Below are positions 7,521 to 28,270 of a stretch of 64,000 bases of DNA, in pieces; position 1 is the first letter of the stretch, and every line of letters starts with the position of its first letter. The DNA is from an uncultured Gammaproteobacteria bacterium (lineage in GTDB: Bacteria > Patescibacteriota > Patescibacteriia > SG8-24). A program made the position numbers and the translations under genes. Under the pieces are notes generated by a model. The model was not told the DNA's origin. It worked only from the letters and a program-made list of their open reading frames with translations, and did not search any database. Where the stretch lies: positions 961-64,960 of the forward strand of contig CAZVED010000001.1 of the NCBI GenBank assembly GCA_964626205.1. The letters run 5' to 3'.

Positions 7521-7553
7521 GGCAGCCTCTTCGTGAGGCTGCCGTTTGATTTT
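7521..7553 (+). terminator. rho-independent terminator
   Basis: GGCAGCCTC-ttcg-tGAGGCTGCC followed by GTTTGATTTT. Confidence 0.6.
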
Positions 7554-7633
7554 AAGCTGGATGCGGGTACCAAAATAAGGCGAAAACGAGGAATAAGCGG
7601 GAGGAAATAGGCTGGATGCGGGTACCAGCTTAA
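7552..7633 (-). repeat. family-A REP/BIME-like element (copy 1, reverse orientation)
   Basis: TTAAGCTGGATGCGGGTACC ... GGAAATAGGCTGGATGCGGGTACCAGCTTAA; reverse complement of the copies at 16551, 26753 and 28189. Confidence 0.8.
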
Positions 7634-7655
7634 ATATCTAAGCGAGCTTATCTTT

Positions 7656-7713
7656 TAAGCTCAAAAGTCTGTCTGGCAGTCTTGACAAACACCACGATTT
7701 ATGCTATAGTCAT
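7656..7713 (+). promoter_or_regulatory. sigma-70-type promoter module (TTGACA-17-TATAGT) with conserved upstream box, paralogue of 6033-6090
   Basis: TAAGCTCAAAAGTCTGTCTGGCAGTCTTGACA at 7656-7688, 17-nt spacer, TATAGT at 7705-7710. Confidence 0.5.
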
Positions 7714-7850
7714 CCGTTCAGTGAGAGGCCCTTGTCGGGAGTCTCGCAGAACACGAAGTGTGGTCTTTCCAAGTGAATCTCACGATGTCGGCCACGGTGG
7801 TCGATGTCTCAGGTTTTGATGCCTTCGGGCTTTTGCAACGGGAGATAGCA

Positions 7851-9023
7851 ATGAACAAGCACTGGGTGATTCTGGGTTTCTTGGTTCTCGGTCTCTCCGC
7901 CTGTGTCGAAGACACGGGTGGTAAGGACGGCATGAACGGCATCGACGGCATGAACGGCGACGCCGGCCCGCAAGGCGAGCCTGGCGAAGACGGCACGAAC
8001 GGCCGCGACGGCACCGACGGTGAAGACGGTCAGAACGGCACGGACGGTACCAACGGTACCGACGGTGTCGATGGTCAGGACGGGCGTGACGGCGAAGACG
8101 GCACGGATGGTACCGACGGTACCGACGGTCGCGACGGCACGGACGGTCAGGACGGCCGCGACGGAACGACGACCATCGTCATCTGTGGTGATCACGAATG
8201 TGACACGCAGAACGGCGAGAACGTCAGCAACTGCGCCATCGACTGCGCTTCGACTCCGGCTCCGTTCTGCGGCGACAACAGCTGCAACAACGGTGAGACG
8301 CACGCGACCTGCTCTGCAGATTGCGATGCGCCTCCGGTCGACCCTCAGGCACCCTACTGCGGCGACGCGTCGTGTAACAACGGCGAGACGCCCAGCAGCT
8401 GCCCGGACGACTGCGGCACCTGCGGTGATGGAAGCTGCAACAACGGCGAAGATCACCTCCTGTGCCCGGACGACTGCGAAGCGCCCGTGGTGACCGAGAC
8501 GTACGCTGGCCCGTTCAAGATGTATCGTGAGCGCCTGACGGACGGTTCGTACCTCTGCTCGATCGGGGTCAACCCGAACTACGCGAGCGGCGCAGCCAAC
8601 AACCAGATCGTCGGAGAAGGCGCAAGCTTCCTCTCGAACTGGGAGTCGGGCTCATCGAGCCAGATCCTGGCCTACCAGAACGGCGGCATCGAGTCGGACG
8701 GATACGTTCGCTTCGAGCTTCCGCGCGATAGCCAGCCAATCGGCACGTCCACGATTCGCTTCTCGTACCGTGGCTGGAATCCCCAGTCGCACAAGTACGA
8801 GTACGCGCAGTACGGCGACGCGGACACGCAGCTCGCGCGCATGACGGACGAGAGCCTCTCGATGGTGTACTGCTTCCAGTACGACCCGTCGAAGTCCTCG
8901 TACGGCTGCTCGGGTCGCATGACCTACGAGGTGTTCGCCAACCCGAACACCAACAAGAAGGACTGTCGGCTGACCGCAGCCGGTAACGCCCAAGTTGCCA
9001 ACGACCTCGTCGTCAGCAACTGA
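7851..9023 (+). CDS. collagen-like triple-helix-repeat lipoprotein with three Cys-rich repeats and a C-terminal globular domain
   Basis: lipobox LVLGLSAC; about 29 uninterrupted G-X-Y triplets (GKDGMNGIDGMNGDAGPQGEPGEDG...GRDG); three repeats CGD(N/A/G)SCNNGE(T/D)H..C..DC; start placed at ATG 7851, preferred over the ORF-track start 7758. Confidence 0.7.
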   Translation: MNKHWVILGFLVLGLSACVEDTGGKDGMNGIDGMNGDAGPQGEPGEDGTNGRDGTDGEDGQNGTDGTNGTDGVDGQDGRDGEDGTDGTDGTDGRDGTDGQDGRDGTTTIVICGDHECDTQNGENVSNCAIDCASTPAPFCGDNSCNNGETHATCSADCDAPPVDPQAPYCGDASCNNGETPSSCPDDCGTCGDGSCNNGEDHLLCPDDCEAPVVTETYAGPFKMYRERLTDGSYLCSIGVNPNYASGAANNQIVGEGASFLSNWESGSSSQILAYQNGGIESDGYVRFELPRDSQPIGTSTIRFSYRGWNPQSHKYEYAQYGDADTQLARMTDESLSMVYCFQYDPSKSSYGCSGRMTYEVFANPNTNKKDCRLTAAGNAQVANDLVVSN

Positions 9024-9034
9024 TCCTTCCTCTC

Positions 9035-9080
9035 GGACCGCCTCCCAGCGCTTGCTGGTGATGGCGGTCCTTTTCTTTTC
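9035..9080 (+). terminator. putative rho-independent terminator
   Basis: GGACCGCC...GGCGGTCC stem with a long structured loop, followed by TTTTCTTTTCT. Confidence 0.45.
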
Positions 9081-9162
9081 TCGCGCGCTCGCAAGGGTGC
9101 GCTTTTTGATAGGGGAGACGACCGTGTGCCAGCCACCCTTAAATGAGGTACACTATCCGTAT

Positions 9163-13585: not shown

Positions 13586-13687
13586 ACAGTCGATGTTTTT
13601 CGCTTATTTCAGCGATGAAACGGTATCTAGGGAACATCGGACTATAGCATAAAAACCACCCTTTGTCAAGGGTGGCGGGGAAACGAT

Positions 13688-13762
13688 TTAAGCTGGACAC
13701 GGGTACCGAAATAGGGCGGAAATGAAGAATGGGCGGGAGGAAATAGGCTGGATGCGGGTACA
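13688..13762 (+). repeat. family-A REP/BIME-like element (copy 2, left flank of RAYT)
   Basis: TTAAGCTGGACACGGGTACC-gaaatagggcggaaatgaagaatgggcgggaggaaata-GGCTGGATGCGGGTAC. Confidence 0.8.
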
Positions 13763-13815: not shown

Positions 13816-14370
13816 ATGGCAAGAAAGCTTCGACAATTACATACGGGAGGGGTGTATCATGTCATTTATCGTGGCAATAACCGCGCGGCGATTTTTGCTG
13901 ATGCGGAAGATTCGGAATATTTTCTTGCGTTATTACGTCGGCTAAAGCGAAGAGATGGTATGCGCGTGTTTCACTATGTGGTCATGACGAATCATGTGCA
14001 TATGGTGGTGATGCCAGAAGCGACGAAAGAATTGTCGCGAATCATGCAGGGATTGGCGCGGGCATACACGGCGTACTACAAACGCAAGTACGGTTTTGTC
14101 GGACAGCTATGGCAGGGGAGATACTTTAGCGCGCTCATCGACACCGATGCGTATCTGTTGACGTGCGGCATCTATATCGAGCTCAATCCGGTCCGTGCGG
14201 GAATGGTCGATGATCCGATGCAGTATCCATGGTCCAGCGCGCATGCGTACGCAACTGAGAAGACAGACGCGATTGTTGACGAGAGTCCGTTGTATGCAGG
14301 ATTAGGCATGACGTATGAAGCGCGGCGGAAGTCATATCGACATTTGTTGAATATGTGGATGAAAAAATAA
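13816..14370 (+). CDS. REP-associated tyrosine transposase (RAYT, IS200/IS605-like Y1 HuH transposase)
   Basis: HuH motif NHVHMVV and catalytic-Tyr motif YIELNPVRAGMV (compare E. coli YafM HMHCIW / YIYINPVKHGWV); 184 aa; flanked by REP copies. Confidence 0.85.
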   Translation: MARKLRQLHTGGVYHVIYRGNNRAAIFADAEDSEYFLALLRRLKRRDGMRVFHYVVMTNHVHMVVMPEATKELSRIMQGLARAYTAYYKRKYGFVGQLWQGRYFSALIDTDAYLLTCGIYIELNPVRAGMVDDPMQYPWSSAHAYATEKTDAIVDESPLYAGLGMTYEARRKSYRHLLNMWMKK

Positions 14371-14452
14371 ATAGGCTGGATGCGGGTACCAGCCTATTTC
14401 CTCCCGCCTATTCTTCATTTCCGCCCTATTTCGGTACCCGTGTCCAGCTTAA
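14371..14452 (-). repeat. family-A REP/BIME-like element (copy 3, right flank of RAYT)
   Basis: GGCTGGATGCGGGTACCAGCC-tatttcctcccgcctattcttcatttccgccctatttc-GGTACCCGTGTCCAGCTTAA; contains the stop codon of the convergent gene 14449..16521. Confidence 0.8.
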
Positions 14453-16521
14453 TTTGGAACCACCACCGACCGAGCGTCATCGTAGTCGAACGGAAGCCGT
14501 GTCGTGACGTCACCGATATGGTGCGTAACTCGGGTTCCCGTCGCGACGTCCGTGCCGGTCACAGAGATGCCGGTAAGCAGCGCGGGGAGGGTGCCGATGT
14601 CGGTGTCGGTCGGGGTGAACGCCAGCTCGAAGCTTGCGCCAGGAGAACTTGCGCGTTCCTGCGTGAACGCGGAAACCGCAGGGATCTTCCAGGTCACGCG
14701 TCGCGTAGACGGGAAGTAGTCGAGCGCCTCGCCTTGCGTGACGCTGAACCGTCCGGTCCACTCCGTACCCGGTGCAAGGAACGCTTCCACGACCGCGTCC
14801 TCGATGACATGTTGCGCGTTGTCGAGTTGGAGGACGATGCGATAGCGCGTCGTTTCGTTAACGGTCGGTGGCAGCGGACCGCGGCCAATCTGGTCGCCGC
14901 TGCGCGTGTAGTAGATGCCCGCGGCTTGCAGGCGGAGCTCTGTCGCGACCGGCACATCGACGGTCGGAGTGTCGATGACGACTTGTTCGCCTCCAGCGGC
15001 TTCTTCGTGTACGGCGGTAAGCAGCGCGGAGAATGCCGCAGATGCTGTTTCTGTGCCGAGCGCGTCCATGACAGACGGCGTAATTTCGCGACGCACGGTG
15101 AGTGTTGTCGTGACTGAGATGGTGTCACCGGGTGCGATGCTGGCGAGCGATGGCGTGTCTTCTGCGGTCCAGGTGAGGATCGGAGTAGCATCGCCATCCA
15201 TGACAAAGAGGCTGTCGGTCACGGAAAGCTGAATAACGCCGTTCGTAAAGGTGCGATCGCCATCGTTGCGCGCGTTGAGGTGCACGGTGACAGTGTCGCC
15301 TGGGCGAAGGAATCGCGTTTCTGCGCTTCCAAGGTCCTGCGTGAGCGTGAGGCCGGAGGAGAGCGAGTTCGCATTCACGCGCGTCGTTGAGGCAGTCACG
15401 GCTGTTCGTGCAGATGCGTTGGCGACGAGGTCGGCAGCGAACGACGTGGACGATGCTTGTCCCGGTGTCGCGCGGAGATAACCGTAGACGACAATCGTCC
15501 CGCGCGCATCCGAAGCAAGGTCGCCTAAGCGCCACAAGCCGGAGCTCGTCGCACGAGGTGCGCTTCCGGTGGTCACGAAGTCCGCTGGGGGCGTGAAGCG
15601 TACTGCCGCGTCGGGGACGGCGCGGTTGGAGGTGTTGGCGTAGGAGAGCGTGACGGCGGTCGTTGCTCCGCGGAGGATGGTTTCCGGAACGGAGATGTCG
15701 ACGCCGACTGCGGAAGAACCGATGGGGAGGCGAATGTGGAACGGAGTAACGACGGGTTCTGTGCTCCCTTCAGTCCAATAGGAGATAGATGCCGGGATCT
15801 CCACGACTGAGCCGATAGGGCCGTAGGGGACGCCAGTCAGGGTTGCGCCACGCTTTGCGCCAGGCATGAGCGGCGGAAGCGGAACGGCGATGGAGGTCGC
15901 AGCGACCGCTGGAGGGACGCAGGAGCGAAGCTCGGTTTCGCTTAGTGCGCCGCCGTGCAGGGAAATGCCTGCATGCGCCATGGACGGCGGGAGATCGACG
16001 GTGAGGATAGTGCAAGGGAGTGCCACGGTAGTAGAGAAGTTCGTGTAATCGATGGTCGCGACCGAGGATTCGCCGCTCACGGATGCCACGGGAGCGTGGA
16101 CCGTGACGGTGAGCACGTTCGGGTTCGCGCTCGGCAGGAAATACGGCGAATAGACGCCGGCGACGATAAGTGCGGCGATGACGACAGCGAGCACGAGGTC
16201 GATAGCGACGAGCTTGTGTGCGTGCTTCGGGTACTTTGCCTTGTACTTCCGTTCCCAGTGCCCCTTGAGCGGCTCGTAGCAGATTTTATGGATGGGATCC
16301 GAGACGAGGACAGCATGCTTATGCGCATGTTTATGCATGCTCGCGAGCGGCGGATAGCAGACACGCTTTACCGGATCCATGAGCTCGCCTGCCTTGTCGC
16401 GCAAAAGGCTCAGTGTCTCAATGGCCGCGCTCATGCCTTTCGCCATAGGCGAAGCTGCCGCGGCGCGGAGCTTTTCCTCGTCGGTCATCACCTTCGGTTG
16501 TTTTGGAGTCTTTGCTTTCAT
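14449..16521 (-). CDS. membrane-anchored surface protein with tandem beta-sandwich (DUF11/Ig-like) repeats; Cys/His-rich cytoplasmic N-terminus
   Basis: cytoplasmic N-terminus with paired motifs RVCYPPLASMHKHAHKH / KICYEPLKGHWERKYKAKYPKHAHK; one TM (LVAIDLVLAVVIAALIVAGV); about 570-aa extracellular Thr/Val/Ser-rich repetitive beta region. Confidence 0.6.
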   Translation of the reverse strand: MKAKTPKQPKVMTDEEKLRAAAASPMAKGMSAAIETLSLLRDKAGELMDPVKRVCYPPLASMHKHAHKHAVLVSDPIHKICYEPLKGHWERKYKAKYPKHAHKLVAIDLVLAVVIAALIVAGVYSPYFLPSANPNVLTVTVHAPVASVSGESSVATIDYTNFSTTVALPCTILTVDLPPSMAHAGISLHGGALSETELRSCVPPAVAATSIAVPLPPLMPGAKRGATLTGVPYGPIGSVVEIPASISYWTEGSTEPVVTPFHIRLPIGSSAVGVDISVPETILRGATTAVTLSYANTSNRAVPDAAVRFTPPADFVTTGSAPRATSSGLWRLGDLASDARGTIVVYGYLRATPGQASSTSFAADLVANASARTAVTASTTRVNANSLSSGLTLTQDLGSAETRFLRPGDTVTVHLNARNDGDRTFTNGVIQLSVTDSLFVMDGDATPILTWTAEDTPSLASIAPGDTISVTTTLTVRREITPSVMDALGTETASAAFSALLTAVHEEAAGGEQVVIDTPTVDVPVATELRLQAAGIYYTRSGDQIGRGPLPPTVNETTRYRIVLQLDNAQHVIEDAVVEAFLAPGTEWTGRFSVTQGEALDYFPSTRRVTWKIPAVSAFTQERASSPGASFELAFTPTDTDIGTLPALLTGISVTGTDVATGTRVTHHIGDVTTRLPFDYDDARSVVVPN

Positions 16522-16550
16522 ATATATGCCGATAGTGTAGCAGAGTGCAT

Positions 16551-16632
16551 TTAAGCTGGTACCCGCATCCAGCCTATTTCCTCCCGCCTATTCTTCATTT
16601 CCGCCTTATTCCGGTACCCGTGTCCAGCTTAA
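16551..16632 (+). repeat. family-A REP/BIME-like element (copy 4)
   Basis: TTAAGCTGGTACCCGCATCCAGCC-tatttcctcccgcctattcttcatttccgccttattcc-GGTACCCGTGTCCAGCTTAA between two minus-strand genes. Confidence 0.8.
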
Positions 16633-16636
16633 ACCG

Positions 16637-18670
16637 TCACTGCCCAACGGACGAGAGCGTGAAGACGTCCGTGGTAAGCGTCACGACTTCGTCTTTTCCG
16701 TCGCCGTCGATGTCTGCCGAGGAGACGCGCACGCCAGTCCGACTTCGTGCGTCTCCGGCAAAGAAGCCGAGGCTGAGTGCGCGTCCGTACTTGTCGAAGA
16801 CGCGCACGTGCGGACCGCCGCCCGGCCCAGCTCCCGTGACGATTTCGTCTTTACCATCGCCGTCCAGGTCGCCGGCTGCCACATGGACGCCGCCGCGGAA
16901 GGCCGGGTCGTAGGCGAAGAAACCAGGATTGAGGAGCCGCCCGTTCTTGTCGAAGATGCGCACGTGCGGACCGCCGCCAACACCAGCACCGGCAATAATC
17001 TCGTGCGCGCCATTGCCGTCGATATCGCCCAGGGCGATGTTGACGCCGCCACGGAAGCGGGGGTCGTAGGCGAAGAAGCCGGGGTTGATGAGCACGCCAT
17101 CCATATTAAAGACGCGGATCTGCGGGCCGGCACCAGAGCCGGTACCGGTGACGATTTCCATCTTACCGTCGCCCTCAAGATCGCCGACCGCGAAGTTGAT
17201 GCCGAGGCGATAGTTTTCGCCGTACGGCTTGAAGGACGTCTTGAGCCGGCCGTCTGCCCAGTAGATGCGAATCTCCGAGTTCGTCGCAACGACCTTCTCG
17301 AGTGTCCCGGAGACGCCGTCGATATCCGTCACGACCACGTTCGTACCACCGTCAAACGGACCTTCATAGGCAAAGAAGCCGTTTCGGACTTGTGCGCCAG
17401 CCCCGGAATAGACGCGCGCAAAGGCGCCGTTCACGAACGTTCCGCCGACAATGCGCTCTACCGGGCGGGTGAGGACGATGCCGTCGAGGCCGGAGAGCGT
17501 CACCGAGGTGACGATGCTGCCGTCGTTGACGCGCGGGTCTTGTGTGCCGCTGAGCTTTTCCATTTCGATGCCGAGGTCGACGGTTTGCGCACGGTCCGTG
17601 GAGTTCACAAGAACGGTCCCGTTCGTGAAGTCGCGTCGGTACACGCCGCGCTGGAGGTTCCGAGCGTTGGGGGAGAGGAGGTTCACCGGGCCCGAGAGCG
17701 GACGTCCGAGATGGACGCTGTACTCATCGTAGTGCCAGAGCTGGCCGTGGTTCTGGTCGCCGAAGTCGTAGCTGAAGAAGCCTTGGCCGAGGAGTGCGGT
17801 CGTGAGCGTGTAGCGGACATTCGCGTAGTCGGCGTTATTGCCGGAGTTGGACGTATTGCCGTTCACGACGAAGACCGGCGTGTAGCCCACACGATCGTGG
17901 AGGTCGAGGTAGTTTTGCGTGACACCCTCCCACGTACCGCCCGCTTCCCACGGGGTAGGGTAGGTTTCGAACATGCGTCCGTTCACGTGTGGCTGGAGCT
18001 CGCCGGTGGAATCGCCGTTCGTCACGATGACGGCGCTCGCACCCAAAAGGTCGCGGGTGTTCTTGAGCAGGTTCACGGTCGCGCGCTTCCATGCCGTGTC
18101 CGCGAGGTGCGCGTCCGTCCGTGCGCCGGAGCGGTGGATGTCGATGTTGCCGCCGTTCACCCAAGAGATGTTCGCGGAGAGCTCATCGTAGAAGACACCG
18201 TCCCAGAGTCCGGTCGCCATGATCTCGTCTTTCACGAACTGCGGGAGGACGGTCTGCCAGCTCCCGACGGTGTTGATGACCGTCGTTCCCGGCCAGACGG
18301 AGACTGCGCGACCGGACGGGTCGCGGAGCCACATGTCGTCGGTGATGTGCGTGCGGAGTTTCTGGTGGAGCGGATCGACCCAGATGCTGTTCCATGACTT
18401 CGATGGGACGTAGGCGAGGATGAGGACGTTCGGATTCAGGCGGCGGAGTTCGTCGAACATCGCACGGTTGTACACCTGCGCTTCAGCCGGGAAGATGAGG
18501 AGGTCGTAGCGCGCGAGCTGCGGGTAGAGCGCCGGGGTGATGTCCGTTCCAGCACGGAGATAGTAGTTCGCCGTCCGCACGAACTTGTCGTCCGGCGTTT
18601 TGATGGCGGCATCTGCCGACTGTGCGCCGAAGAGCCCCATCGCGATGAGGGGGGCCATGAGCAGTGTCAT
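16637..18670 (-). CDS. secreted glycoside-hydrolase-like (TIM-barrel GHL-type) protein with C-terminal FG-GAP/beta-propeller repeats
   Basis: signal peptide MTLLMAPLIAMGLFGAQSADA; N-terminal roughly 400-aa domain resembling glycoside-hydrolase-like families; four C-terminal repeats FRGGV..A.GD.DGDG..EIVTGAG.GGGPHVR.F; the ORF-track start 18730 lies inside a family-B repeat, so start set at M21 (alternative 18658). Confidence 0.6.
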   Translation of the reverse strand: MTLLMAPLIAMGLFGAQSADAAIKTPDDKFVRTANYYLRAGTDITPALYPQLARYDLLIFPAEAQVYNRAMFDELRRLNPNVLILAYVPSKSWNSIWVDPLHQKLRTHITDDMWLRDPSGRAVSVWPGTTVINTVGSWQTVLPQFVKDEIMATGLWDGVFYDELSANISWVNGGNIDIHRSGARTDAHLADTAWKRATVNLLKNTRDLLGASAVIVTNGDSTGELQPHVNGRMFETYPTPWEAGGTWEGVTQNYLDLHDRVGYTPVFVVNGNTSNSGNNADYANVRYTLTTALLGQGFFSYDFGDQNHGQLWHYDEYSVHLGRPLSGPVNLLSPNARNLQRGVYRRDFTNGTVLVNSTDRAQTVDLGIEMEKLSGTQDPRVNDGSIVTSVTLSGLDGIVLTRPVERIVGGTFVNGAFARVYSGAGAQVRNGFFAYEGPFDGGTNVVVTDIDGVSGTLEKVVATNSEIRIYWADGRLKTSFKPYGENYRLGINFAVGDLEGDGKMEIVTGTGSGAGPQIRVFNMDGVLINPGFFAYDPRFRGGVNIALGDIDGNGAHEIIAGAGVGGGPHVRIFDKNGRLLNPGFFAYDPAFRGGVHVAAGDLDGDGKDEIVTGAGPGGGPHVRVFDKYGRALSLGFFAGDARSRTGVRVSSADIDGDGKDEVVTLTTDVFTLSSVGQ

Positions 18671-18716: not shown

Positions 18717-18726
18717 ATGGTGCGCG

Positions 18727-19020: not shown

Positions 19021-19030
19021 GTGAGAGGTG

Positions 19031-19200
19031 TGTCATTGCGAGGCCTGAAAGGCCGAAGCAACCCCGTTGAATCAGGAGAAGTATATCACGTTAAACTGAA
19101 TGCTTCATACCACGAAGATCCTTATTTGTCAAGAATAGTGTAGACAAATATCTTGAAATTGGACGGGATTGCTTCGGGCCTAAAGGCCCTCGCAATGACA
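19031..19200. repeat. family-B composite element: two inverted arms flanking a 95-bp AT-rich core
   Basis: TGTCATTGCGAGGCCTGAAAGGCCGAAGCAACCCC (19031-19065) ... GGGATTGCTTCGGGCCTAAAGGCCCTCGCAATGACA (19163-19198); core much lower in GC than its surroundings. Confidence 0.7.
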
Positions 19201-19352
19201 CGGTGGGCACCCGCGTTACCATTTCCACCCCACCAACGTAGAAGCATGGTCGCCGCAAAACCGTCACGGTGACTTCATGTCAGGAGAAGAACTGCAGCGG
19301 AACATCATTGCCGACACCTGCCTTAATCGCGCTCAAAAGCACCCCTGTCCAC

Positions 19353-19381
19353 TTCACAGTTTCATCGCGCGCGCCTATACT
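19353..19381 (+). promoter_or_regulatory. candidate sigma-70-type promoter (TTCACA-17-TATACT) for the ECF sigma gene
   Basis: TTCACA at 19353-19358, 17-nt spacer, TATACT at 19376-19381; about 105 nt upstream of the ATG at 19488. Confidence 0.3.
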
Positions 19382-19487
19382 AGGTTGGATTCACGGGCAT
19401 CTGACTCCGCAAAAGAGTACGGCTGATCCCGCTCCTCTAGGCTAAAGCGAAACTGTAACACTTCACCACGTCCCAACGTCTAAGTGC

Positions 19488-20087
19488 ATGCAGAGTCGTT
19501 TAAAAGAAAAGTTCCTGCTCTTCCGCATCCGCGCGAAGAAAGACCCGGACGCATTCGGGGAGGTGTACGACATGTACGTCACCCGCATCTACCGGTTCAT
19601 CTACTTCAAAGTGGCATCGGCTGAGCAGGCCGAGGATCTCACTTCCGAGACCTTCCTCAAAGCGTGGCAGTACCTCATGGAGCGCCGCGACGTGCAGAGC
19701 CTTCAAGCGCTCTTGTACACGGTCGCGAAGAACGTCGTCATCGACCATTACCGGCACACGGCGCGCGAGCGCGGCGACACCGGATTGGACGGCATCGTGG
19801 AAACGATGGGCGATGCGCACAGTGAGAAGCTGCTCAAGGACATCGAGACTCACTTCGATGCCACGCAAGTGCTGGAGAAACTCCGCGGACTCAAAGACGA
19901 GTACCGCGACGTCATCGTCATGAAATACTTTGACGAGCTCAGCACGGGAGAGATCGCAAGCATCCTCGGAAAATCCGCAGCCAACGTCAGGGTCATCCTT
20001 CATCGGGCGACCAAGATGCTCGGCGATGCGGTCCGAGAACATGACCAACAAGAAGCTCGACACAATCCTGGGTCAGATAAAGAATGA
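19488..20087 (+). CDS. ECF-type RNA polymerase sigma factor (sigma-70 family)
   Basis: region 2 (ETFLKAWQYLMERRDVQSLQALLYTVAKNVVIDHYR) and region 4 (YRDVIVMKYFDELSTGEIASILGKSAANVRVILHRATKML). Confidence 0.8.
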   Translation: MQSRLKEKFLLFRIRAKKDPDAFGEVYDMYVTRIYRFIYFKVASAEQAEDLTSETFLKAWQYLMERRDVQSLQALLYTVAKNVVIDHYRHTARERGDTGLDGIVETMGDAHSEKLLKDIETHFDATQVLEKLRGLKDEYRDVIVMKYFDELSTGEIASILGKSAANVRVILHRATKMLGDAVREHDQQEARHNPGSDKE

Positions 20088-21096
20088 ACGGCGAGGCGGT
20101 GCCCCGCACGCTGATTGGGTTTCGCGCAACAAAGAAGTGTTGATGATGCAGGTCCGCAATACGACGGACGCATCCGCGAAGAATCCGATGGGCGTGGTAG
20201 CGAGGCACCTTTTTGCTACCTTCTTCCCGTCCGAGCAACTTTCCATGGCCGCACGCGCGTTCGGCGTGTTTGTGCTTGCCGGTGGCATCGTGCTCTCCGG
20301 CGGTGTCGCGACTGCGCAGCTTTACGGCGACGCGGTCCCGGGCGACCTCGCCTACGGCATGAAGACCGCCATCGAAAAGACGCAGCTTGTTCTCGCACCG
20401 AACGACTCTTATAAGATGCACCTCCTCACGGACTTCTCCGACCGCCGCATGGACGAGATCGCGCGGCTCGCCGAAGGCTCCGGTTCCCAGCAGGCGCTCA
20501 TCCCGGGTGTACTCACGTCGTTCGAGAAGAACGTCATCGCCATGCAGACGAGCATCGAGGGTATGCGCGCCTCCGACCCGGAGAACGTCATCGAGACGGC
20601 CAAGCTCATGGAGCGCAAGATGGTCGTCTACCACAACGCCCTTCGTAAGGCGTCTGCGTCGGTACCATCGGATATCCGCATCCACCTCGCGCTCACGGGT
20701 AACCTCGTCGACGACGGCATGGTCACGGCGCTTGCGATGATCGTCGAAGCGCACTTGGCGGGGAACGAAAGGGCTCCGGGCTCAGTGCTCACTTCCAAGT
20801 TCGAGTCTCGCATCCGGCAGGCCGAAGAAGCGCTTGCCACGGTCGAAGAAGCCGCCGCAGCGCCGGCAACGGCCGCGAACAAACAGAAAGCGCAGCAAGC
20901 CATCGCCGCTGCCAAGGAGCTGGTGCAAAAGGAGGAATACCAGGCCGCGCTCCTCAAGATTGAAGAAATCGCCCAGCTCACAAAAGAAGAGCCGCCGGTC
21001 GAGGAAGAGGTTGTAACGCCCGAAGAACCGGTAACGGAAGCACCGCCCGAAACGTCTACTATAGAAGAGCCCCCCGAGAGTCCACCAGCGGAGTAG
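20041..21096 (+). CDS. membrane-anchored DUF5667-type protein, putative anti-sigma factor (paralogue of 191..1873)
   Basis: cytoplasmic N-terminus, TM (AFGVFVLAGGIVLSGGVATA), GDAVPGDLAYGMKTAIEKTQ motif as in the 191..1873 protein, C-terminal coiled-coil and Pro/Glu-rich tail; start at ATG 20041 overlapping the sigma gene by 47 nt (ORF-track start 19930 is antisense read-through). Confidence 0.6.
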   Translation: MTNKKLDTILGQIKNERRGGAPHADWVSRNKEVLMMQVRNTTDASAKNPMGVVARHLFATFFPSEQLSMAARAFGVFVLAGGIVLSGGVATAQLYGDAVPGDLAYGMKTAIEKTQLVLAPNDSYKMHLLTDFSDRRMDEIARLAEGSGSQQALIPGVLTSFEKNVIAMQTSIEGMRASDPENVIETAKLMERKMVVYHNALRKASASVPSDIRIHLALTGNLVDDGMVTALAMIVEAHLAGNERAPGSVLTSKFESRIRQAEEALATVEEAAAAPATAANKQKAQQAIAAAKELVQKEEYQAALLKIEEIAQLTKEEPPVEEEVVTPEEPVTEAPPETSTIEEPPESPPAE

Positions 21097-21191
21097 TGTC
21101 ATTGCGAGCGGGCCGTACCCGGCCCCGAAGCAATCCCGAACATGAACGGGATTGCCGCGGGCCGACGAGTACGTCGACCCTCGCAATGACA
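21097..21191. repeat. family-B palindromic element (two inverted arms, 9-bp core)
   Basis: TGTCATTGCGAGCGGGCCGTACCCGGCCCCGAAGCAATCCCG-aacatgaac-GGGATTGCCGCGGGCC...CCCTCGCAATGACA, immediately after the stop at 21096. Confidence 0.7.
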
Positions 21192-21285
21192 AAGTAGGGA
21201 AGCCGTCGCCACGCCCACAGTGCCACAGAGTAGGAAAGGTTCCTTCACAATCGAGTCCAGCCCCCACACCGTTTCCCGAGTGATG

Positions 21286-21323
21286 TGTCATTGCGAGGCC
21301 CGAAGGGCCGAAGCAATCCCGTC
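21286..21323 (+). repeat. family-B palindromic arm (single arm)
   Basis: TGTCATTGCGAGGCCCGAAGGGCCGAAGCAATCCCGTC. Confidence 0.6.
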
Positions 21324-21531
21324 GAAGACTCGGAGAACGATGCGGGGTCTGGCGCCCGTATAAAGGACCGATGATGCTTTCGGTCCTCATATGGTCGCTA
21401 TGGCCTGTATATCCAGACTCTCCGCATGCCCACCGAAAGGTCGAATCCACGCAAGTGGATGTGGCATGTTCACACCAAAGGGTTTCCGCAATTTAAGCGG
21501 ACCTCCTACTACTAGAAAAGGAAAATAAGAT

Positions 21532-24500
21532 ATGACAGACGTAATGAAAATGAGCCGGAAGGCCTTTTCGATCGGTGTCGTCGCTCTGACGGTTGCCTGG
21601 TCGATCGGTCTCTCCGCCCTCCTCGCTCCGCTCGCTTCGAGCGCTGCAGTGTCGGGTTCGCTCATCAAGGCTTCCATGCCGGCCGTGTACTACATGGGCT
21701 CGGATGGCAAGCGCTATGTGTTCCCGAACGAAAAGACCTACTTCTCTTGGTACGCGGATTTCTCCGCTGTCCAGGTCATCACGGATTCGGAGCTCGCCTC
21801 CCTTCCGATCGGTGGCAACGTCACGTACCGCCCGGGTGTTCGCATGGTGAAGATCCAGACTGATCCGAAGGTGTACGCAGTTGACTCTCATGGTGTCCTT
21901 CGCTGGATCACCTCTGAGGCGGCAGCTGTCGCTCTCTACGGTTCCGCTTGGAACACCATGGTTCACGATGTCTCGGATGCGTTCTTCACCAACTACACGG
22001 TTGGCGCAGACGTCTCCGGTCCGTCGGACTTCAACCCGGGTGCCGCAACGGCAGCCGCAACATCCATCAACCAGGACAAGAACCTCTCAACGGGTTCTGC
22101 CGCTGGCCTCAGCGTCTCCAAGGCGTCTGACTCCCCGATGGGTGCCACCCTTCCGCTCGGCGCGATGGGTGTCAACTTCGTCAAGTTCAACGTCATGAAC
22201 GGCGGTTCTTCCGCTGCTATGCTCTCCTCGCTCACGGTCATGCGTTCCGGCCCTGGCTATGCCAGCGACTTCGACGCGGTGTACGTGTACCGCGGCTCCG
22301 AGCGTTTGACGACCGGCCGCTCGATCAACTCCTCGTCCAACGAGGCGACGTTCAGCGGTTTGAACCTCTCGATCCCGGCGGGCGGCTCCGTCTCCCTCTG
22401 GATCGCGGGTGACATCTCCACGTCCGCTTTCGCAGGCAACGTGAACGCGCTCTCCGTGAGCAGCGTCATGGTTGGCAGCAGCTCCGTGTCCGGCACGCCG
22501 GTCATGGGCTCTTCCTTCAGCCTCGCAGGTGCAACGGTCGGTGAAATTGACATCGAGCGCACTGGCGGCTCCACCCTTGCCAACATCAAGGCAGGTGGTC
22601 TCGCGCAGCGCGTCGCATCGTTCCGTCTCACGGCCGGCAATCAGGAGGACCTCGATGTCCACTCTGTCGCGCTCACCTTCGGTGGTAACCTGAACCGTGC
22701 TCACCTCTCCAACTTCGTGCTCAAGCAGAGTGGCTCCACGCTCGCGTCGATCCCGTCCATCTCGGACAAGGACCTCGTGACGTTCGCCTTCTCGAGCCCG
22801 ATGTTCATGGAGAAGGGCGCTCAGCGCACCTTCGATGTGTTCGCGGATGTGAACGCAGGCGCTCGCTCCGGCGATGAGGTTGCGTTCTATGTCGATGTCA
22901 ACGCGGATGTCCGCGCCATGGGCCGCACCTACGGCTTCGGTGTGATGACGACCATTGACGCCACGTTCGACGCGTCCACCGATCAGGTGGCAACGGTCGA
23001 AGCAGGCAAGCTCACCACCACCTTCAATGGCCCGGCCTCCAAGGACGTGCTCGCGAACGGCAAGGATGTCGAGCTCTTCAACTTCACGGTCGCGGCTCAG
23101 GCCAACCTGGAGTTCCGCGAGGTCACGCTCGCACTTGACACCAACGGTGGCGACCCTCTCAACACCGTAGTCAGCGACATCAAGATCGTTGACACGGCCA
23201 ATGGTGCTATCGTTGCTGGTCCGACGGATGGCGGCGCAAGCTGCGTCCTCACGGCCAACACGGGTACGTGCGCCTTCTCGGAGACTTGGAACCTCGCGAG
23301 CGGCCAGTCGCGCACCTTCAAGGTGACGGCTGACATCAACTCCGCTGCGAATGGTGATGAAATTCGCGTGACGCTCGGCTCCGGCCAGTTGTTCGCGAAC
23401 AGCAAGGTCCGCAACTTGGACAACAACACCTACCTCGGCGCGTCCGACATGGTTCCGTCCACGGTGCTTGGAGGTAACATCCACACGGTGACCGACTCCG
23501 GTCTCACGGTTGGTAACGCCTCGACACCGGTTGCTCAGACCTACATCAAGGGCTCCTCGGACATCGCGCTCGCAGGCTGGTCCTTCACGGCAGCTGACGC
23601 TGCCCCGGTTCGCTTGAACTCGATCACGGTAGACTGTACCGCTGACGATGACAGCACGGTGAACGAGAAGGACGAGCTGTGCAACAGCGTTGTGCAGACA
23701 GTGAGGCTCATGAACGGTGCGACCCAGGTCGGCGTCACTGCCAGCCCGGATTCGTCCGACAGCATCCGCTTCGACAACCTCAATCTCACCATCAATGGTG
23801 GACAGAGCATGACGCTTGTGCTCATGGGCACGCTCTCCAGCTCTGCTCCGACCACGACCTACCTCGGGTTCGAGATTGAAGATGTTGATGTCACTGATGC
23901 TGACGGTGGTACGGTAAGCGACTCTGGCGTTCCTACGGCCATGAGCGCACTTATGACCGTCGCCGCGCAGGGCTCCGTCACGCTCGTCAACGCCCCAGTT
24001 GATATTGAGTCTGAGCCGAGCCTCGTTATCGGTGGCTCGTCGAACGTCGTGCTCGGTAAGTACCGCATGACCGCTCAGGACGAAGAGCTTCGCCTGTCGA
24101 AGGTGCAGTTCAGCGTCGCTACCCCGGCTGGTATTTCAACGGTGTCGCTCCACGATGGCGCAACGCTCGTTGGCGGTCCGGTCAGTGTGGTTGGCGGCCT
24201 CGCCACCTTCTCTTCGGTGAACTTCGTTGTTCCGAAGGACACGTCCAAGACCCTCACGGTCAAGGCGAACCTCAACACCGTCTCGCCGACCACTTCCGGT
24301 CCGCAGCCGATGGACCCGGTGACCATCACGATGCTTGATGCCAACCTCGAGATCCGCGGAACGTCCGCTGGTTCGGGCACGACCATCGTCTCCGCTGGTA
24401 CGGGCGACCCACTGGCCGGCAACCTCGCGGCCTACGGTAAGTTCATCGTGAAGTCCAAGCCGACGGTTGAAGTCGTGAGCGGTGACAAGGTGCTGGTCAA

Positions 24501-24945
24501 CAGCGCTGCCGCGAACGTCCTCACCCTTACGGTCTCGGCCGACACGGCTGGTCCGGTGGCGTTCCAGACCCTCGAGTTCACGGTGAACGACGACACGAAC
24601 CTCGGTGTCCTCGCCTGCTCGGGCACTGAGTCCAGCGTCTTCACGGCCAGCAACAACCAGGTTGTTGTCGGTAACTGTGACCTCACTGGCTCGTCTCTCA
24701 CCATCGACTTCACCGACGAACAGGTGGTCAACGCAGGAACCGCGAAGTCCTACTACCTCATGCTCAACATCTCGGGCACGGCAGATGGCGACTCGGTCAG
24801 CGTTGTTCTCGAGAGCACTGGCTTCGGCTGGTCTGATTACTCGGCTGTCGGTCACGACACGACGGGTATGACGGGTGCTGACTGGTTCACGGATGGTGAC
24901 TACGTCAAGTACCTTCCGTCCACGGCTCGCACGCTCTCCCGCTAA
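21532..24945 (+). CDS. large secreted surface protein: conserved ~110-aa N-terminal domain (YYxGxDGKRYxFPN...DPKVYAV...LRWI) plus tandem Ig-like beta-sandwich repeats
   Basis: signal peptide; N-terminal domain shared with 25412, 26892 and 28316 genes; more than 900 aa of Thr/Ser/Gly/Val-rich repeats; good RBS (AAAAGGAAAATAAGATATG). Confidence 0.65.
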   Translation: MTDVMKMSRKAFSIGVVALTVAWSIGLSALLAPLASSAAVSGSLIKASMPAVYYMGSDGKRYVFPNEKTYFSWYADFSAVQVITDSELASLPIGGNVTYRPGVRMVKIQTDPKVYAVDSHGVLRWITSEAAAVALYGSAWNTMVHDVSDAFFTNYTVGADVSGPSDFNPGAATAAATSINQDKNLSTGSAAGLSVSKASDSPMGATLPLGAMGVNFVKFNVMNGGSSAAMLSSLTVMRSGPGYASDFDAVYVYRGSERLTTGRSINSSSNEATFSGLNLSIPAGGSVSLWIAGDISTSAFAGNVNALSVSSVMVGSSSVSGTPVMGSSFSLAGATVGEIDIERTGGSTLANIKAGGLAQRVASFRLTAGNQEDLDVHSVALTFGGNLNRAHLSNFVLKQSGSTLASIPSISDKDLVTFAFSSPMFMEKGAQRTFDVFADVNAGARSGDEVAFYVDVNADVRAMGRTYGFGVMTTIDATFDASTDQVATVEAGKLTTTFNGPASKDVLANGKDVELFNFTVAAQANLEFREVTLALDTNGGDPLNTVVSDIKIVDTANGAIVAGPTDGGASCVLTANTGTCAFSETWNLASGQSRTFKVTADINSAANGDEIRVTLGSGQLFANSKVRNLDNNTYLGASDMVPSTVLGGNIHTVTDSGLTVGNASTPVAQTYIKGSSDIALAGWSFTAADAAPVRLNSITVDCTADDDSTVNEKDELCNSVVQTVRLMNGATQVGVTASPDSSDSIRFDNLNLTINGGQSMTLVLMGTLSSSAPTTTYLGFEIEDVDVTDADGGTVSDSGVPTAMSALMTVAAQGSVTLVNAPVDIESEPSLVIGGSSNVVLGKYRMTAQDEELRLSKVQFSVATPAGISTVSLHDGATLVGGPVSVVGGLATFSSVNFVVPKDTSKTLTVKANLNTVSPTTSGPQPMDPVTITMLDANLEIRGTSAGSGTTIVSAGTGDPLAGNLAAYGKFIVKSKPTVEVVSGDKVLVNSAAANVLTLTVSADTAGPVAFQTLEFTVNDDTNLGVLACSGTESSVFTASNNQVVVGNCDLTGSSLTIDFTDEQVVNAGTAKSYYLMLNISGTADGDSVSVVLESTGFGWSDYSAVGHDTTGMTGADWFTDGDYVKYLPSTARTLSR

Positions 24946-25054
24946 TTCCTTTCTCGCCTTGGAGCTCAGGTTCGCCTGAGCTCCGGGCAGAACGGTTTTC
25001 CGGAACGTGCTCCCGCTCGTGTACGAACCGGACAGCAGGAAAGCAAAACAAACA

Positions 25055-25398: not shown

Positions 25399-25411
25399 CA
25401 AAACCCCGCAG

Positions 25412-26698: not shown

Positions 26699-26700
26699 CA

Positions 26701-26730
26701 AGGAGCGGCCCGGCCGCTCCTTTTGCTTTT
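26701..26730 (+). terminator. rho-independent terminator
   Basis: GGAGCGGCC-cg-GCCGCTCC then TTTTGCTTTT directly after the stop at 26698. Confidence 0.6.
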
Positions 26731-26752
26731 GGGAGCGACACACCAGGCGGGT

Positions 26753-26832
26753 TTAAGCTGGTACCCGTGTCCAGCCTATTTCCTCCCGCTTATTTCTCGT
26801 TTCCGCCTTATTTCGGTACCCGCATCCAGCTT
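26753..26832 (+). repeat. family-A REP/BIME-like element (copy 5)
   Basis: TTAAGCTGGTACCCGTGTCCAGCC-tatttcctcccgcttatttctcgtttccgccttatttc-GGTACCCGCATCCAGCTTT. Confidence 0.8.
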
Positions 26833-26891
26833 TAGTGGTTGCCATACTGAGCGTTTTTCGGCATGCTGGAGGTCATATAACCCCACGTCGT

Positions 26892-28136
26892 ATGCACGCG
26901 TTTCGTTTTGTCTCGACAACCGCCATCGCCCCGTTCCTTGCCGCAGTCGCGCTCGTCGTCGCTCCGTCGGTACATGCGTTTCCGGTCCTTGTCGAGCAGA
27001 CGCTCGCGCAACAGCCGTCAGAGACGCATCTTTTTGCTGGTATCTCGATCGGCGACCTCGTGAAGCTGCCCGACGACAACGACCCGACGACGACGCAGGA
27101 TTCCGTCGTGTACTACTTCGATCGTGACTGGAAGCGTCGGCCGTTCCCGAACCGGCACGTGTTCGATTCATGGTACGCGGACTTCTCGTCCGTGCGAGAG
27201 GTCACGCCGGAGCAAATGGCAGGGATGCGCCTCGGTCCACCCATCCTGTACCGCCCGGGAACACGCCTCGTGAAGATTCCGTCCATTCCGAAGGTGTACG
27301 CCGTGGAACCCGGCGGTGTGCTGCGCTGGATCACGACAGAGGACGTTGCCATCGCGCTGTATGGCACAGAGTGGTCGAAGCGCGTGGATGACCTTCCGGA
27401 AGCGTTCTTTACCGCGTACACGGAAGGTCCGGCACTGTACGCCGATGCATATCCGACGAGAACGCTTTTGCGTCTCGGCGGCGGCGCCTCGTTCTATGTG
27501 GTGGACGGCGGGACCATTCGGTTCGTCGCACCGCAGGACATGGCGCGATTCCGTTTCCAGACGCGCCACGCCGTTGACACGACCGCGTTGCCGGAAGGGT
27601 ATCCGCTCCTCGGCACGCTCACGGAAAACGGCGAGAACCTGACAGATACGTCGCAGCTGTCGCGTTCCGAAACGCTGCCGGCGGCACAGATCGATTTTCC
27701 GGTCCGTTCGACATCTGTCGAGGCCGGAGCTAATCGCACACTCGCATCGTTCCGTTTGACCGTCGGTGCTACGGTGACGCTTCGCAGGATGGACGTCACG
27801 CTTGCCGGTGCATGGAGCGATGCGACGCCGCTTGTGCGCGGCGTGAGGCTTGTCGACCGCGCGACAGGGGAGACGCTGTTCGGGACGCGCGAATTAGAGT
27901 CGGTCGGTGCTGAGCGTGAGACGGTTCCGTTCACGGGCGCGTTCGGCATTCCGGACGACATGGTCGTGGAAGTCGATCTGCGCGCGGATATCGCCGACGG
28001 ATACGATGGTCGCACGCTGACCGTGCTCTTTGAGCAATCGTCCGCAGAGGTCGTCGATGGGTTGAACGTCGATCGGAAGATGCCGCTTTTGCCGATGCGA
28101 GCGTATCCGGCGCTTACGGTGACGATTGGGGAGTAG
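26892..28136 (+). CDS. secreted protein with N-terminal conserved surface-family domain and C-terminal beta-rich region
   Basis: signal peptide MHAFRFVSTTAIAPFLAAVALVVAPSVHA; VVYYFDRDWKRRPFPNRHVFDSWYADFSSV...PKVYAVEPGGVLRWITTEDVAIALYG; start at ATG 26892, preferred over the ORF-track start 26835. Confidence 0.55.
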   Translation: MHAFRFVSTTAIAPFLAAVALVVAPSVHAFPVLVEQTLAQQPSETHLFAGISIGDLVKLPDDNDPTTTQDSVVYYFDRDWKRRPFPNRHVFDSWYADFSSVREVTPEQMAGMRLGPPILYRPGTRLVKIPSIPKVYAVEPGGVLRWITTEDVAIALYGTEWSKRVDDLPEAFFTAYTEGPALYADAYPTRTLLRLGGGASFYVVDGGTIRFVAPQDMARFRFQTRHAVDTTALPEGYPLLGTLTENGENLTDTSQLSRSETLPAAQIDFPVRSTSVEAGANRTLASFRLTVGATVTLRRMDVTLAGAWSDATPLVRGVRLVDRATGETLFGTRELESVGAERETVPFTGAFGIPDDMVVEVDLRADIADGYDGRTLTVLFEQSSAEVVDGLNVDRKMPLLPMRAYPALTVTIGE

Positions 28137-28188
28137 GCGAGCAATCACGCACGCGAATCAAAACATCGAATCTTCAGGCGTTTTCGTT

Positions 28189-28270
28189 TTAAGCTGGTAC
28201 CCGTGTCCAGCCTATTTCCTCCCGCCCATTTCTCGCTTCCGCCTTATTTCGGTACCCGCATCCAGCTTAA
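28189..28270 (+). repeat. family-A REP/BIME-like element (copy 6)
   Basis: TTAAGCTGGTACCCGTGTCCAGCC-tatttcctcccgcccatttctcgcttccgccttatttc-GGTACCCGCATCCAGCTTAA. Confidence 0.8.

What the first reader, a model, noticed from the sequence alone, without database searches (positions are those of the whole stretch)
7552..28270. Six copies of a ~80-bp REP/BIME family in 64 kb, with loop inversion between copies and insertion next to paralogous surface-protein genes
Family-A copies occur at 7552, 13688, 14371, 16551, 26753 and 28189, all in short intergenic gaps. The 9-nt loop between the GCTGG and CCAGC stems appears as TACCCGCAT in some copies (16551) and as its reverse complement ATGCGGGTA in others (14371, 7552). 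The loop position also alternates between TACCCGCAT and TACCCGTGT at the two ends of one element. That is the expected footprint of hairpin units inserted in either orientation, as in BIME-type REP arrays. Two copies sit exactly between members of the four-gene paralogous surface-protein array, at 26753 and 28189. One copy contains the stop codon of gene 14449..16521. The repeats may drive recombination or expansion of that array, or act as terminators or mRNA stabilisers.
Basis: seen in the sequence. Interest (0 to 1): 0.6.

Follow-up and report, generated by a model that had tools for sequence, protein, structure and literature searches.

The report
Repeat family flanking its own transposase

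Summary
Exactly six copies of an 84-85-nt element lie at 7551, 13687, 14369, 16550, 26752 and 28188, all intergenic. Its 16-mer GGTACCCGYRTCCAGC occurs 12 times against 0.12 expected.

It encodes a 184-aa HUH/Y1 transposase of the REP-associated (RAYT) type, with motifs NHVH, WQ and YIELNP. These fit subclass 2.1 / Group 1 / "TIRYT". Copies 2 and 3 bracket this gene as 64-nt inverted repeats, 98% complementary. That is a REPtron/TIRtron layout.

Related Patescibacteria genomes carry the same gene with the same flank geometry but different flank sequences.

The "loop inversion" is mostly whole-element orientation. Only copy 3, next to the transposase, has a truly flipped hairpin.

BIME-type arrays, terminator roles and array expansion are not supported. 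Copies 1 and 5 sit downstream of separate terminators. Copies 5 and 6 are 96% identical, while their flanking genes share only one domain at 53-58% amino-acid identity.

No copy was found in any outside collection, and the source genome could not be retrieved, so genome-wide spread is untested. I rate it a new member of a known kind, of modest interest.

The parts
7551..7635 (-). Copy 1, complete 85-nt element. The purine-rich centre is on the window + strand, and both 16-mers are of the CA type.
   Evidence: It lies between the intrinsic terminator at 7520-7544 of gene 6288-7478 and a promoter-like site at 7682-7710.
13687..13762 (-). Copy 2, the left arm flanking the transposase gene. Its outer end TTTAAGCTGG is intact. 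Its inner end stops after GGGTAC and lacks the closing CAGCTTAAA.
   Evidence: (I10). It lies 18 nt from a divergent promoter-like site at 13669-13641.
13741..13761 (+). First copy of the 21-nt direct repeat AAATAGGCTGGATGCGGGTAC, bracketing the transposase cassette.
13816..14370 (+). 184-aa HUH/Y1 transposase of the REP-associated type (RAYT, TIRYT-like). Motifs: NHVH, LWQGRY, YIELNPVRAG, YPWSS.
   Evidence: Pfam Y1_Tnp E 3e-15. NCBIfam REP_Tyr_transpos 79 bits (cutoff 80), against IS200 23.7 bits (cutoff 55). The only PDB match is E. coli TnpArep 4ER8. Alignment with homologues.
14369..14452 (+). Copy 3, the right arm flanking the transposase gene. The inner end is an 11-bp-stem hairpin, AAATAGGCTGG-ATGCGGGTA-CCAGCCTATTT, that includes the second 21-nt direct repeat (14369-14389). 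The outer TTAA supplies the stop codon of gene 14449-16521.
   Evidence: (I10: 64 nt, 98% complementary to copy 2).
16550..16633 (+). Copy 4, complete element. It fills most of the 115-nt gap between minus-strand genes 16637-18730 and 14449-16521, and is 96-97% identical to copies 2 and 3.
   Evidence: In the closest relative's contig the corresponding gap is 14 nt.
26752..26835 (+). Copy 5, complete element with a mutated right terminus (TTTAG). It lies downstream of the terminator at 26700-26722.
28188..28272 (+). Copy 6, complete element, 96% identical to copy 5. It lies between genes 26835-28136 and 28316-31192.

Best explanation
Family A is the cognate repeat family of the Y1 (HUH) tyrosine transposase encoded at 13816-14370. 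This is a REPtron/TIRtron-type system in a Patescibacteria genome.

Shown:
- The transposase gene is bracketed by two copies in inverted orientation, and by a 21-nt direct repeat at their inner ends.
- Four further copies lie in nearby intergenic gaps.
- Each dispersed copy is colinear with one 75-nt flanking arm plus CAGCTTAA(A), which closes a GCTGG-N9-CCAGC hairpin and creates 10-nt TTTAAGCTGG/CCAGCTTAAA termini.

Inferred:
- The enzyme binds the 16-mer/hairpin on single-stranded DNA and cuts at or next to the terminal TTAA, as IS200/IS605 TnpA and E. coli TnpA-REP act on their hairpins.
- In this way it copies or moves the 85-nt units into AT-rich intergenic TTAA sites, preferentially near its own gene.
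- The two gene-proximal copies have damaged inner ends, so the gene itself stays put.
- Any effect on neighbouring genes is incidental.
For: - Transposase identity.
- Its motifs NHVH / WQ / YIELNP match subclass 2.1 in Table 1 of PMC6006769.
- Copies 2 and 3 flank the gene as 64-nt arms, 98% complementary (I10). The inner 16-mers are in direct orientation.
- Deleting the cassette plus one direct repeat leaves a 139-nt near-perfect palindrome. One more deletion between CCAGC repeats reproduces the dispersed element.
- Four related Patescibacteria loci have the homologous gene with a hairpin repeat about 50 nt upstream of the ATG and another abutting or overlapping the stop codon. This is the same geometry with different sequence.
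- One relative also has a dispersed solo copy of its flank motif in a spacer of its surface-gene array.
- No other transposase was found among about 50 window ORFs.
- By my estimate, with 6 copies over roughly 55 gaps, the chance that both gaps flanking one gene are occupied is about 1%.
- The closest relative's contig has a 14-nt gap where copy 4 sits, consistent with insertion.
Against: - There is no direct evidence of mobility. No empty site was seen at sequence level, so the exact ends and target are unknown.
- Only four dispersed copies are visible. The rest of the source genome could not be read.
- No copy was found in representative genomes, metagenomes, viral contigs or plasmids.
- The elements lack the GT[AG]G tag and the strong palindrome of classical REPs.
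- Subclass 2.1 enzymes were reported to lack REP-like flanks.
- This protein lacks the C-terminal HTH of that subclass.
- It scores 79 bits against the NCBIfam cutoff of 80.
Confidence: 0.75

Rival explanations
1. The element is a conventional MITE with 10-nt terminal inverted repeats and a TA or TTAA target duplication. It would be mobilised by a DDE transposase encoded elsewhere in the genome. Its position on both sides of the Y1 gene would then be coincidental or secondary.
For: The termini TTTAAGCTGG/CCAGCTTAAA are perfect inverted repeats ending in TTAA. The single-strand folds show little beyond that terminal stem. The element lacks classical REP features.
Against: No DDE transposase was found among about 50 ORFs in the window. 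The two gene-flanking copies are the most similar pair (98%) and have specially rearranged inner ends that abut the ORF. Relatives show the same flank geometry around the homologous gene with unrelated sequences. That fits enzyme-and-substrate co-evolution, not chance insertion.
Confidence: 0.12
2. The copies are host functional sites such as terminators, mRNA 3'-end stabilisers, or binding sites for a nucleoid or regulatory protein. They would be kept by selection rather than spread by transposition.
For: All copies are intergenic. Classical REP/BIME elements have such roles in E. coli (abstract of PMC3479197). The 19 bases CCAGCCTATTTCCTCCCGC are invariant in all six copies.
Against: Copies 1 and 5 lie downstream of separate canonical terminators. 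No copy matches a terminator pattern. Folding z-scores for the complete dispersed copies are mostly weak, -1.2 to -4.1. The centre that would face the downstream gene's transcript is purine-rich at copies 1 and 4 and pyrimidine-rich at copies 5 and 6. Rfam gives no match even at E of 1 or less.
Confidence: 0.08
3. The copies are passive remnants of segmental duplication or gene conversion within a variable cell-surface gene region, duplicated together with neighbouring genes.
For: Copies 5 and 6 occupy equivalent positions upstream of paralogous genes. Their right flanks share GTGGT..ATACTG (D4).
Against: Copies 5 and 6 are 96% identical, whereas the flanking genes share only one domain at 53-58% amino-acid identity (60-76% at the DNA level). 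Copies 1, 2 and 4 lie next to unrelated genes. Element boundaries are sharp, at TTTAA...TTAAA.
Confidence: 0.03

Closest known systems
TIRtron / TIRYT (Di Nocera et al. 2013, PMC3733652); TnpA-Y1 subclass 2.1 (Quentin et al. 2018, PMC6006769); RAYT Group 1 (Bertels et al. 2017, PMC5581495)
   Same: The protein motifs NHVH, WQ and YIELNP fit. The gene is flanked by long terminal inverted repeats. The flank sequence belongs to a modest repeat family, as described for some TIRYTs. The flanking 16-mer count of 12 equals the Group 1 mean of 12 per replicon. Relatives' flanks carry the GGGGWSAS consensus, as GGGGACAG.
   Different: The protein is 184 aa and lacks the C-terminal HTH domain (subclass median 238 aa). 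The window's flanks lack GGGGWSAS; the closest stretch is GGGTACAG at 13755-13762. The host phylum is Patescibacteria. The dispersed unit is a one-armed 85-nt element with two direct 16-mers.
REPtron: RAYT plus REP/REPIN (Nunvar 2010; Bertels and Rainey 2011, PMC3116915; Ton-Hoang 2012; Messing 2012, PDB 4ER8)
   Same: A Y1 transposase gene is bracketed by the same short repeat that is scattered in intergenic DNA. The repeat is lineage-specific, and the gene neighbourhood is conserved across relatives.
   Different: There is no GT[AG]G tag. The dispersed units are not inverted REP doublets forming long hairpins; only copy 3 forms a 17-bp stem. Similarity to E. coli TnpA-REP is weak, E 5e-4.
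IS200/IS605 insertion sequences and their gene-less derivatives
   Same: The HUH/Y1 catalytic core is shared. The recognition motifs at the two ends of the dispersed element, and the inner motifs around the gene, are in direct orientation, as LE and RE hairpins are in IS608. The ends could be defined by a short cleavage motif (TTAA).
   Different: The protein scores far below the IS200 model cutoff (23.7 against 55 bits). It has the Y...NP motif, not Y...Q. No tnpB is present, and terminal inverted repeats are.
E. coli BIME arrays
   Same: Short palindrome-containing intergenic repeats occurring in both orientations.
   Different: There is no alternation of inverted REP types with fixed linkers. 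Each unit is a fixed 85-nt element and copies are solitary.

Membership tests
REPtron (RAYT + REP) | Encodes an HUH/Y1 transposase of the RAYT clade (HuH motif, Y...NP motif) | tested here: met
   Pfam Y1_Tnp E 3e-15. NCBIfam REP_Tyr_transpos 79 bits, just under the cutoff of 80, against IS200 23.7 bits. NHVH and YIELNP are present. The only PDB hit is 4ER8.
REPtron (RAYT + REP) | The transposase gene is flanked by copies of the repeat in inverted orientation | tested here: met
   Arms 13688-13751 and 14389-14452, 64 nt, 98% complementary (I10).
REPtron (RAYT + REP) | The same repeat is dispersed in many intergenic sites across the genome | tested here: inconclusive
   There are four dispersed copies within 14.4 kb of the gene and none in the other 43 kb of the window. 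The rest of the genome is not retrievable.
REPtron (RAYT + REP) | REP is a 20-40-nt imperfect palindrome with a 5' GT[AG]G tag | tested here: not met
   No GTAG or GTGG lies at the hairpin foot. The hairpin is GCTGG-N9-CCAGC inside an 85-nt unit.
TIRYT / subclass 2.1 / Group 1 RAYT | Motifs NHVH (or NH[YF]H), W[EQ], YIELNP (or Y[IV]HLNP) | tested here: met
   NHVH, LWQ and YIELNP are present, compared with Table 1 of PMC6006769.
TIRYT / subclass 2.1 / Group 1 RAYT | C-terminal helix-turn-helix extension (median length 238 aa) | tested here: not met
   The protein is 184 aa and ends before the extension seen in 235-236-aa homologues.
TIRYT / subclass 2.1 / Group 1 RAYT | Flanking terminal inverted repeats, commonly with GGGGWSAS | tested here: inconclusive
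   The inverted repeats are present. GGGGWSAS is absent from the flanks here; window hits are at chance level and lie elsewhere. It is present in relatives L001 and L039.
REPIN | Two REPs in inverted orientation forming one long hairpin | tested here: not met
   The two 16-mers are in direct orientation in copies 1, 2, 4, 5 and 6. Their folds show only a 10-12-bp terminal stem. Only copy 3 has inverted 16-mers (17-bp stem, -13.9 kcal/mol).
BIME | Clusters of alternating inverted REPs separated by conserved linkers | tested here: not met
   Copies are solitary fixed-length units.
IS200/IS605 | TnpA with the Y...Q motif, scoring above the IS200 model cutoff, in multiple near-identical gene copies | tested here: not met
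   IS200 model 23.7 bits against a cutoff of 55. The Y motif is YIELNP. There is one gene copy in the window.
DDE-type MITE | Terminal inverted repeats plus a target-site duplication, with a matching autonomous DDE element | tested here: inconclusive
   10-nt inverted termini are present. A duplication cannot be told apart from element ends without an empty site. No DDE transposase is in the window, and the rest of the genome is unseen.

The most novel reading that the evidence does not exclude
The 85-nt units are active non-autonomous single-strand transposons. Two direct copies of a 16-mer recognition motif and TTAA cleavage sites would define their ends, and a minimal Group 1 / TIRYT-class Y1 enzyme lacking the HTH domain would mobilise them. 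That would give this large, functionally uncharacterised transposase class its first clear DNA substrate. It would also be the first REP-RAYT-type system documented in the reduced genomes of Patescibacteria.
Probability: 0.3. Interest if true: 0.5.

Novelty: new member of a known kind. Interest (0 to 1): 0.33.

Why it matters
Subclass 2.1 / Group 1 is the largest and most widespread class of domesticated Y1 transposases. Its DNA targets and function are largely unknown, and published surveys disagree on whether it has associated repeats.

This locus is a compact example. A minimal 184-aa enzyme sits beside a small, well-defined repeat family, and relatives have swapped the flank sequence while keeping the geometry. 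That makes it a convenient system for testing what these enzymes recognise.

It also shows that streamlined Patescibacteria genomes keep such systems. I found no paper in the held library linking REP or RAYT elements to this phylum.

For annotation, the public gene call appears to start at Met49 (136 aa), which is probably too short.

Tried and rejected
- Source contig: retrieval through exact-protein look-ups failed for the transposase, for its 136-aa public call, and for CTP synthase.
- Representative genomes: a scan with the invariant 19-mer CCAGCCTATTTCCTCCCGC gave 6 hits. All were bare chance matches in unrelated phyla.
- Metagenomes: a scan with the hairpin GCTGGTACCCGYRTCCAGC gave 30 hits. 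None extended beyond the queried bases.
- Viral contigs and plasmids: nothing relevant.
- Protein search: I queried the open reading frames that run through the element, hoping to catch spurious gene calls over other copies. There were no hits.
- Rfam: no match at gathering thresholds or at E of 1 or less.
- Profile HMM of the six copies: no diverged copies in the window or in relatives' loci.
- Promoters: I considered whether the elements donate promoters or -35 boxes to downstream genes. The scans do not place promoter-like sites in them.
- Inversion: I considered an inversion between inverted copies as the origin of copy 3's flipped hairpin. No reciprocal chimera exists in the window, and the gene-order difference from relatives is not a single inversion.
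- Empty sites: the homologous upstream regions of genes 21532 and 25412 could not be aligned as empty sites.
Full report
**Observation.** The six copies are present at the stated coordinates.
- Repeat detection groups them into one family (D4, D7, I1-I10).
- blastn-short and a profile HMM built from them each recover exactly six copies (E 2e-20 to 3e-26). Neither finds diverged extras anywhere in the 64 kb.
- The 16-mer GGTACCCGYRTCCAGC occurs twice per copy. That is 12 hits against 0.12 expected, and no shuffle reaches 12.
- All copies lie between 7.5 and 28.3 kb.

**Anatomy.** I call an element "plus" when the pyrimidine-rich centre is on the window + strand. In that orientation the consensus is TTTAAGCTGG-TACCCGYRT-CCAGC-CTATTTCCTCCCGCC...(C/T-rich)...CGG-TACCCGYRT-CCAGCTTAAA.
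- The unit has 10-nt inverted termini ending in TTAA.
- It has one GCTGG-N9-CCAGC hairpin at one end.
- It has two copies of the 16-mer in direct orientation, 55 nt apart.
- Copies 3-6 are plus; copies 1 and 2 are minus.
- As single strands the dispersed copies form little beyond the 10-12-bp terminal stem (-6 to -14.5 kcal/mol; z -1.2 to -4.1).
- Three subfamilies are visible. Copies 2-4 are 96-98% alike, with CA at the left and TG at the right. Copies 5-6 are 96% alike, with TG at the left and CA at the right. Copy 1 has CA at both ends.

ORF 13816-14370 lies between copies 2 and 3 and encodes a 184-aa HUH/Y1 transposase.
- Pfam Y1_Tnp gives E 3e-15.
- NCBIfam "REP-associated tyrosine transposase" gives 79 bits against a cutoff of 80. 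The IS200 model gives only 23.7 bits against a cutoff of 55.
- The only solved structure matched is E. coli TnpA-REP, 4ER8. The alignment covers the HuH and catalytic-Tyr motifs.
- The motifs NHVH, LWQ and YIELNPVRAG match subclass 2.1 in the classification of Quentin et al. (PMC6006769, Table 1). That subclass equals Bertels' Group 1 and largely the "TIRYT" class of Di Nocera et al. (PMC3733652).
- The protein and its closest Patescibacteria homologues (184-197 aa) stop before the C-terminal extension of the 235-236-aa homologues.
- The public gene call appears to begin at Met49 (136 aa). Homologues align from residue 1.

**The flanks of the gene.**
- Copies 2 and 3 form 64-nt arms that are 98% complementary (I10).
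- Their inner ends are non-standard. Copy 2 stops after GGGTAC. Copy 3 begins with an 11-bp-stem hairpin, AAATAGGCTGG-ATGCGGGTA-CCAGCCTATTT.
- The result is a 21-nt direct repeat, AAATAGGCTGGATGCGGGTAC, at 13741 and 14369, bracketing the gene.
- Removing the cassette and one direct repeat in silico leaves a 139-nt near-perfect palindrome. A further deletion between two CCAGC repeats reproduces the dispersed 84-85-nt element, which is about 96% identical to copy 4 by my hand alignment.
- So each dispersed copy is one flank arm plus a short closing segment.
- This also explains the "loop inversion". Copy 3 is the only copy whose left 16-mer is inverted relative to its right one. It is also the only copy that folds as a long hairpin (17 bp, -13.9 kcal/mol).
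- At 7552 the reversed loop simply reflects whole-element orientation.

**Relatives.** CTP synthase in the window (56598-58232) places the organism in Patescibacteria. The named hits, at roughly 70-80% identity, are mostly Parcubacteria, Uhrbacteria and "Patescibacteria group".
- I read four loci carrying homologues of the transposase at 44-52% identity. They come from three assemblies: L001, L039 and L042 (same assembly), and L043.
- In each, the gene has a hairpin repeat about 50 nt upstream of the ATG and a second copy abutting or overlapping the stop codon, in direct orientation. This is the same geometry as here with different sequences.
- L001 and L039 carry GGGGACAGTCCCC, which fits the published TIRYT consensus GGGGWSAS.
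- L039 has a third, solo copy of its motif in a spacer of its own paralogous surface-gene array.
- In L001 and L039 the gene sits beside the same cluster (ECF sigma, DUF5667, GHL15/FG-GAP, a large secreted protein), but the order and orientation differ from the window. The contig of the closest homologue (75% identity) shares the window's adjacency of the transposase gene to a ~685-aa minus-strand gene.
- That closest contig has a 77-nt gap after the gene, against 78 nt here, which copy 3 fills. It has only a 14-nt gap where copy 4 sits, against 115 nt here. This is consistent with copy 4 being an insertion. Only gene coordinates were available, not DNA.

**Tests of the proposed functions.**
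- Copy 1 lies between a canonical terminator (7520-7544) and a promoter-like site (7682-7710).
- Copy 5 lies after a terminator at 26700-26722.
- Copy 2 lies 18 nt from a divergent promoter-like site.
- No copy is itself terminator-like or promoter-like.
- Orientation relative to downstream genes is mixed.
- Rfam gives nothing.
- The four "surface" genes share one ~110-130-aa domain at 53-58% identity and have N-terminal hydrophobic segments. Copies 5 and 6 are 96% identical, so they arrived after the gene duplications.
- Relatives have such arrays without family A.

**Distribution.**
- The source contig could not be retrieved.
- Exact-pattern scans of representative genomes, metagenomes and viral contigs returned only chance-level matches limited to the queried bases. 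A blastn search of plasmids found nothing.
- A protein search with the element's open frames found nothing.
- The family is therefore lineage-specific as far as can be seen, and genome-wide abundance is untested.
- The three subfamilies at 88-91% mutual identity hint at a larger, older population. That is inference.

**Mechanism.**
- Shown: the physical linkage, the arm-to-element colinearity, the conserved flank geometry across relatives, and the absence of any other transposase among about 50 ORFs.
- Inferred: by analogy with IS200/IS605 TnpA and E. coli TnpA-REP, the enzyme recognises the 16-mer/hairpin on one DNA strand and cleaves at the TTAA ends. It thereby propagates the 85-nt units into AT-rich intergenic sites.
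- Inferred: the gene-proximal copies have disabled inner ends, so the gene is immobile.
- The clustering of all copies within 14.4 kb of the gene is suggestive of action in cis, but it is not statistically strong.

**Comparison and novelty.** The system works like a REPtron/TIRtron.
- It meets the protein and flanking criteria.
- It fails the classical REP criteria (GTAG tag, REPIN hairpin) and the BIME criteria.
- It lacks the HTH domain and the GGGGWSAS motif typical of TIRYTs.
- Moderately abundant repeat families derived from TIRYT flanks have already been described.
- I therefore rate it a new member of a known kind. The unusual points are the host phylum, the minimal enzyme and the one-armed element with direct 16-mers.
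- I found no paper in the held library linking REP or RAYT systems to Patescibacteria.

Noticed in passing
window 5980-6020, 18665-18711, 19023-19071, 19159-19188, 21097-21137, 21145-21191, 21278-21326: A second, unrelated intergenic repeat family: TGTCATTGCGAG, then a variable G+C hairpin, then GAAGCAATCCCGT. At least seven copies occur in both orientations, in the same variable region as family A.
   Followed up: no
window 41209-41312 and 58709-58813: A ~105-nt pair in inverted orientation, 91-93% complementary. Both members are intergenic, and they may represent a third repeat family (I11/I14).
   Followed up: no
L001 9915-9956 and 10542-10583; L039 9920-9955, 10544-10580 and 6009-6047; L043 9925-9960 and 10541-10572: In relatives, most of the hairpins flanking the homologous transposase gene have arms that read as DnaA-box-like TTATCCACA / TGTGGATAA, around a GGGGACAG-type core. 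The downstream copies in L039 and L043 are degenerate (TTATCCCCA, GGGGATAA). The literature notes that the C-terminal domain of this transposase class resembles DnaA_C but that its repeats do not resemble DnaA boxes. Here they do, although these short proteins lack that domain.
   Followed up: partly
L039 4639-4777, 6042-6117, 14733-14842, 16517-16615, 16806-16843, 17262-17379: The relative genome GCA_964407925.1 has an abundant canonical GTAG-tagged REP family (GTAGCTGCGCGGCTTGCCGCGC...) in the equivalent intergenic spacers. It also has a second Y1 transposase on another contig (L042) with its own direct-repeat flanks.
   Followed up: partly
window 13816-25000 compared with L001 and L039: The block from the DUF11-like gene to the large secreted protein is inverted relative to the transposase gene when compared with two relatives. 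The paralogous gene array lies on the other side. The difference cannot be a single inversion, which suggests the transposase unit or its surroundings were rearranged.
   Followed up: partly
window 7556-7626, 13692-13762, 14375-14448, 16558-16628, 26760-26830, 28196-28266: The variable dinucleotide in the 16-mer is CA at one end and TG at the other in 5 of 6 copies. Which end carries which is swapped between subfamilies. CA and TG are reverse complements, so this could reflect pairing or a strand-specific wobble. Six copies are too few to test it.
   Followed up: partly
window 7758-9023: A gene with about 20 collagen-like G-X-Y triplet repeats (Pfam Collagen, E 1.4e-14) and Cys-rich repeats lies immediately downstream of copy 1.
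   Followed up: no
window 13816-14370: The public gene call for the transposase appears to start at Met49 (136 aa, P0002). Homologues align from residue 1 of the 184-aa ORF, so the deposited annotation is probably truncated.
   Followed up: yes
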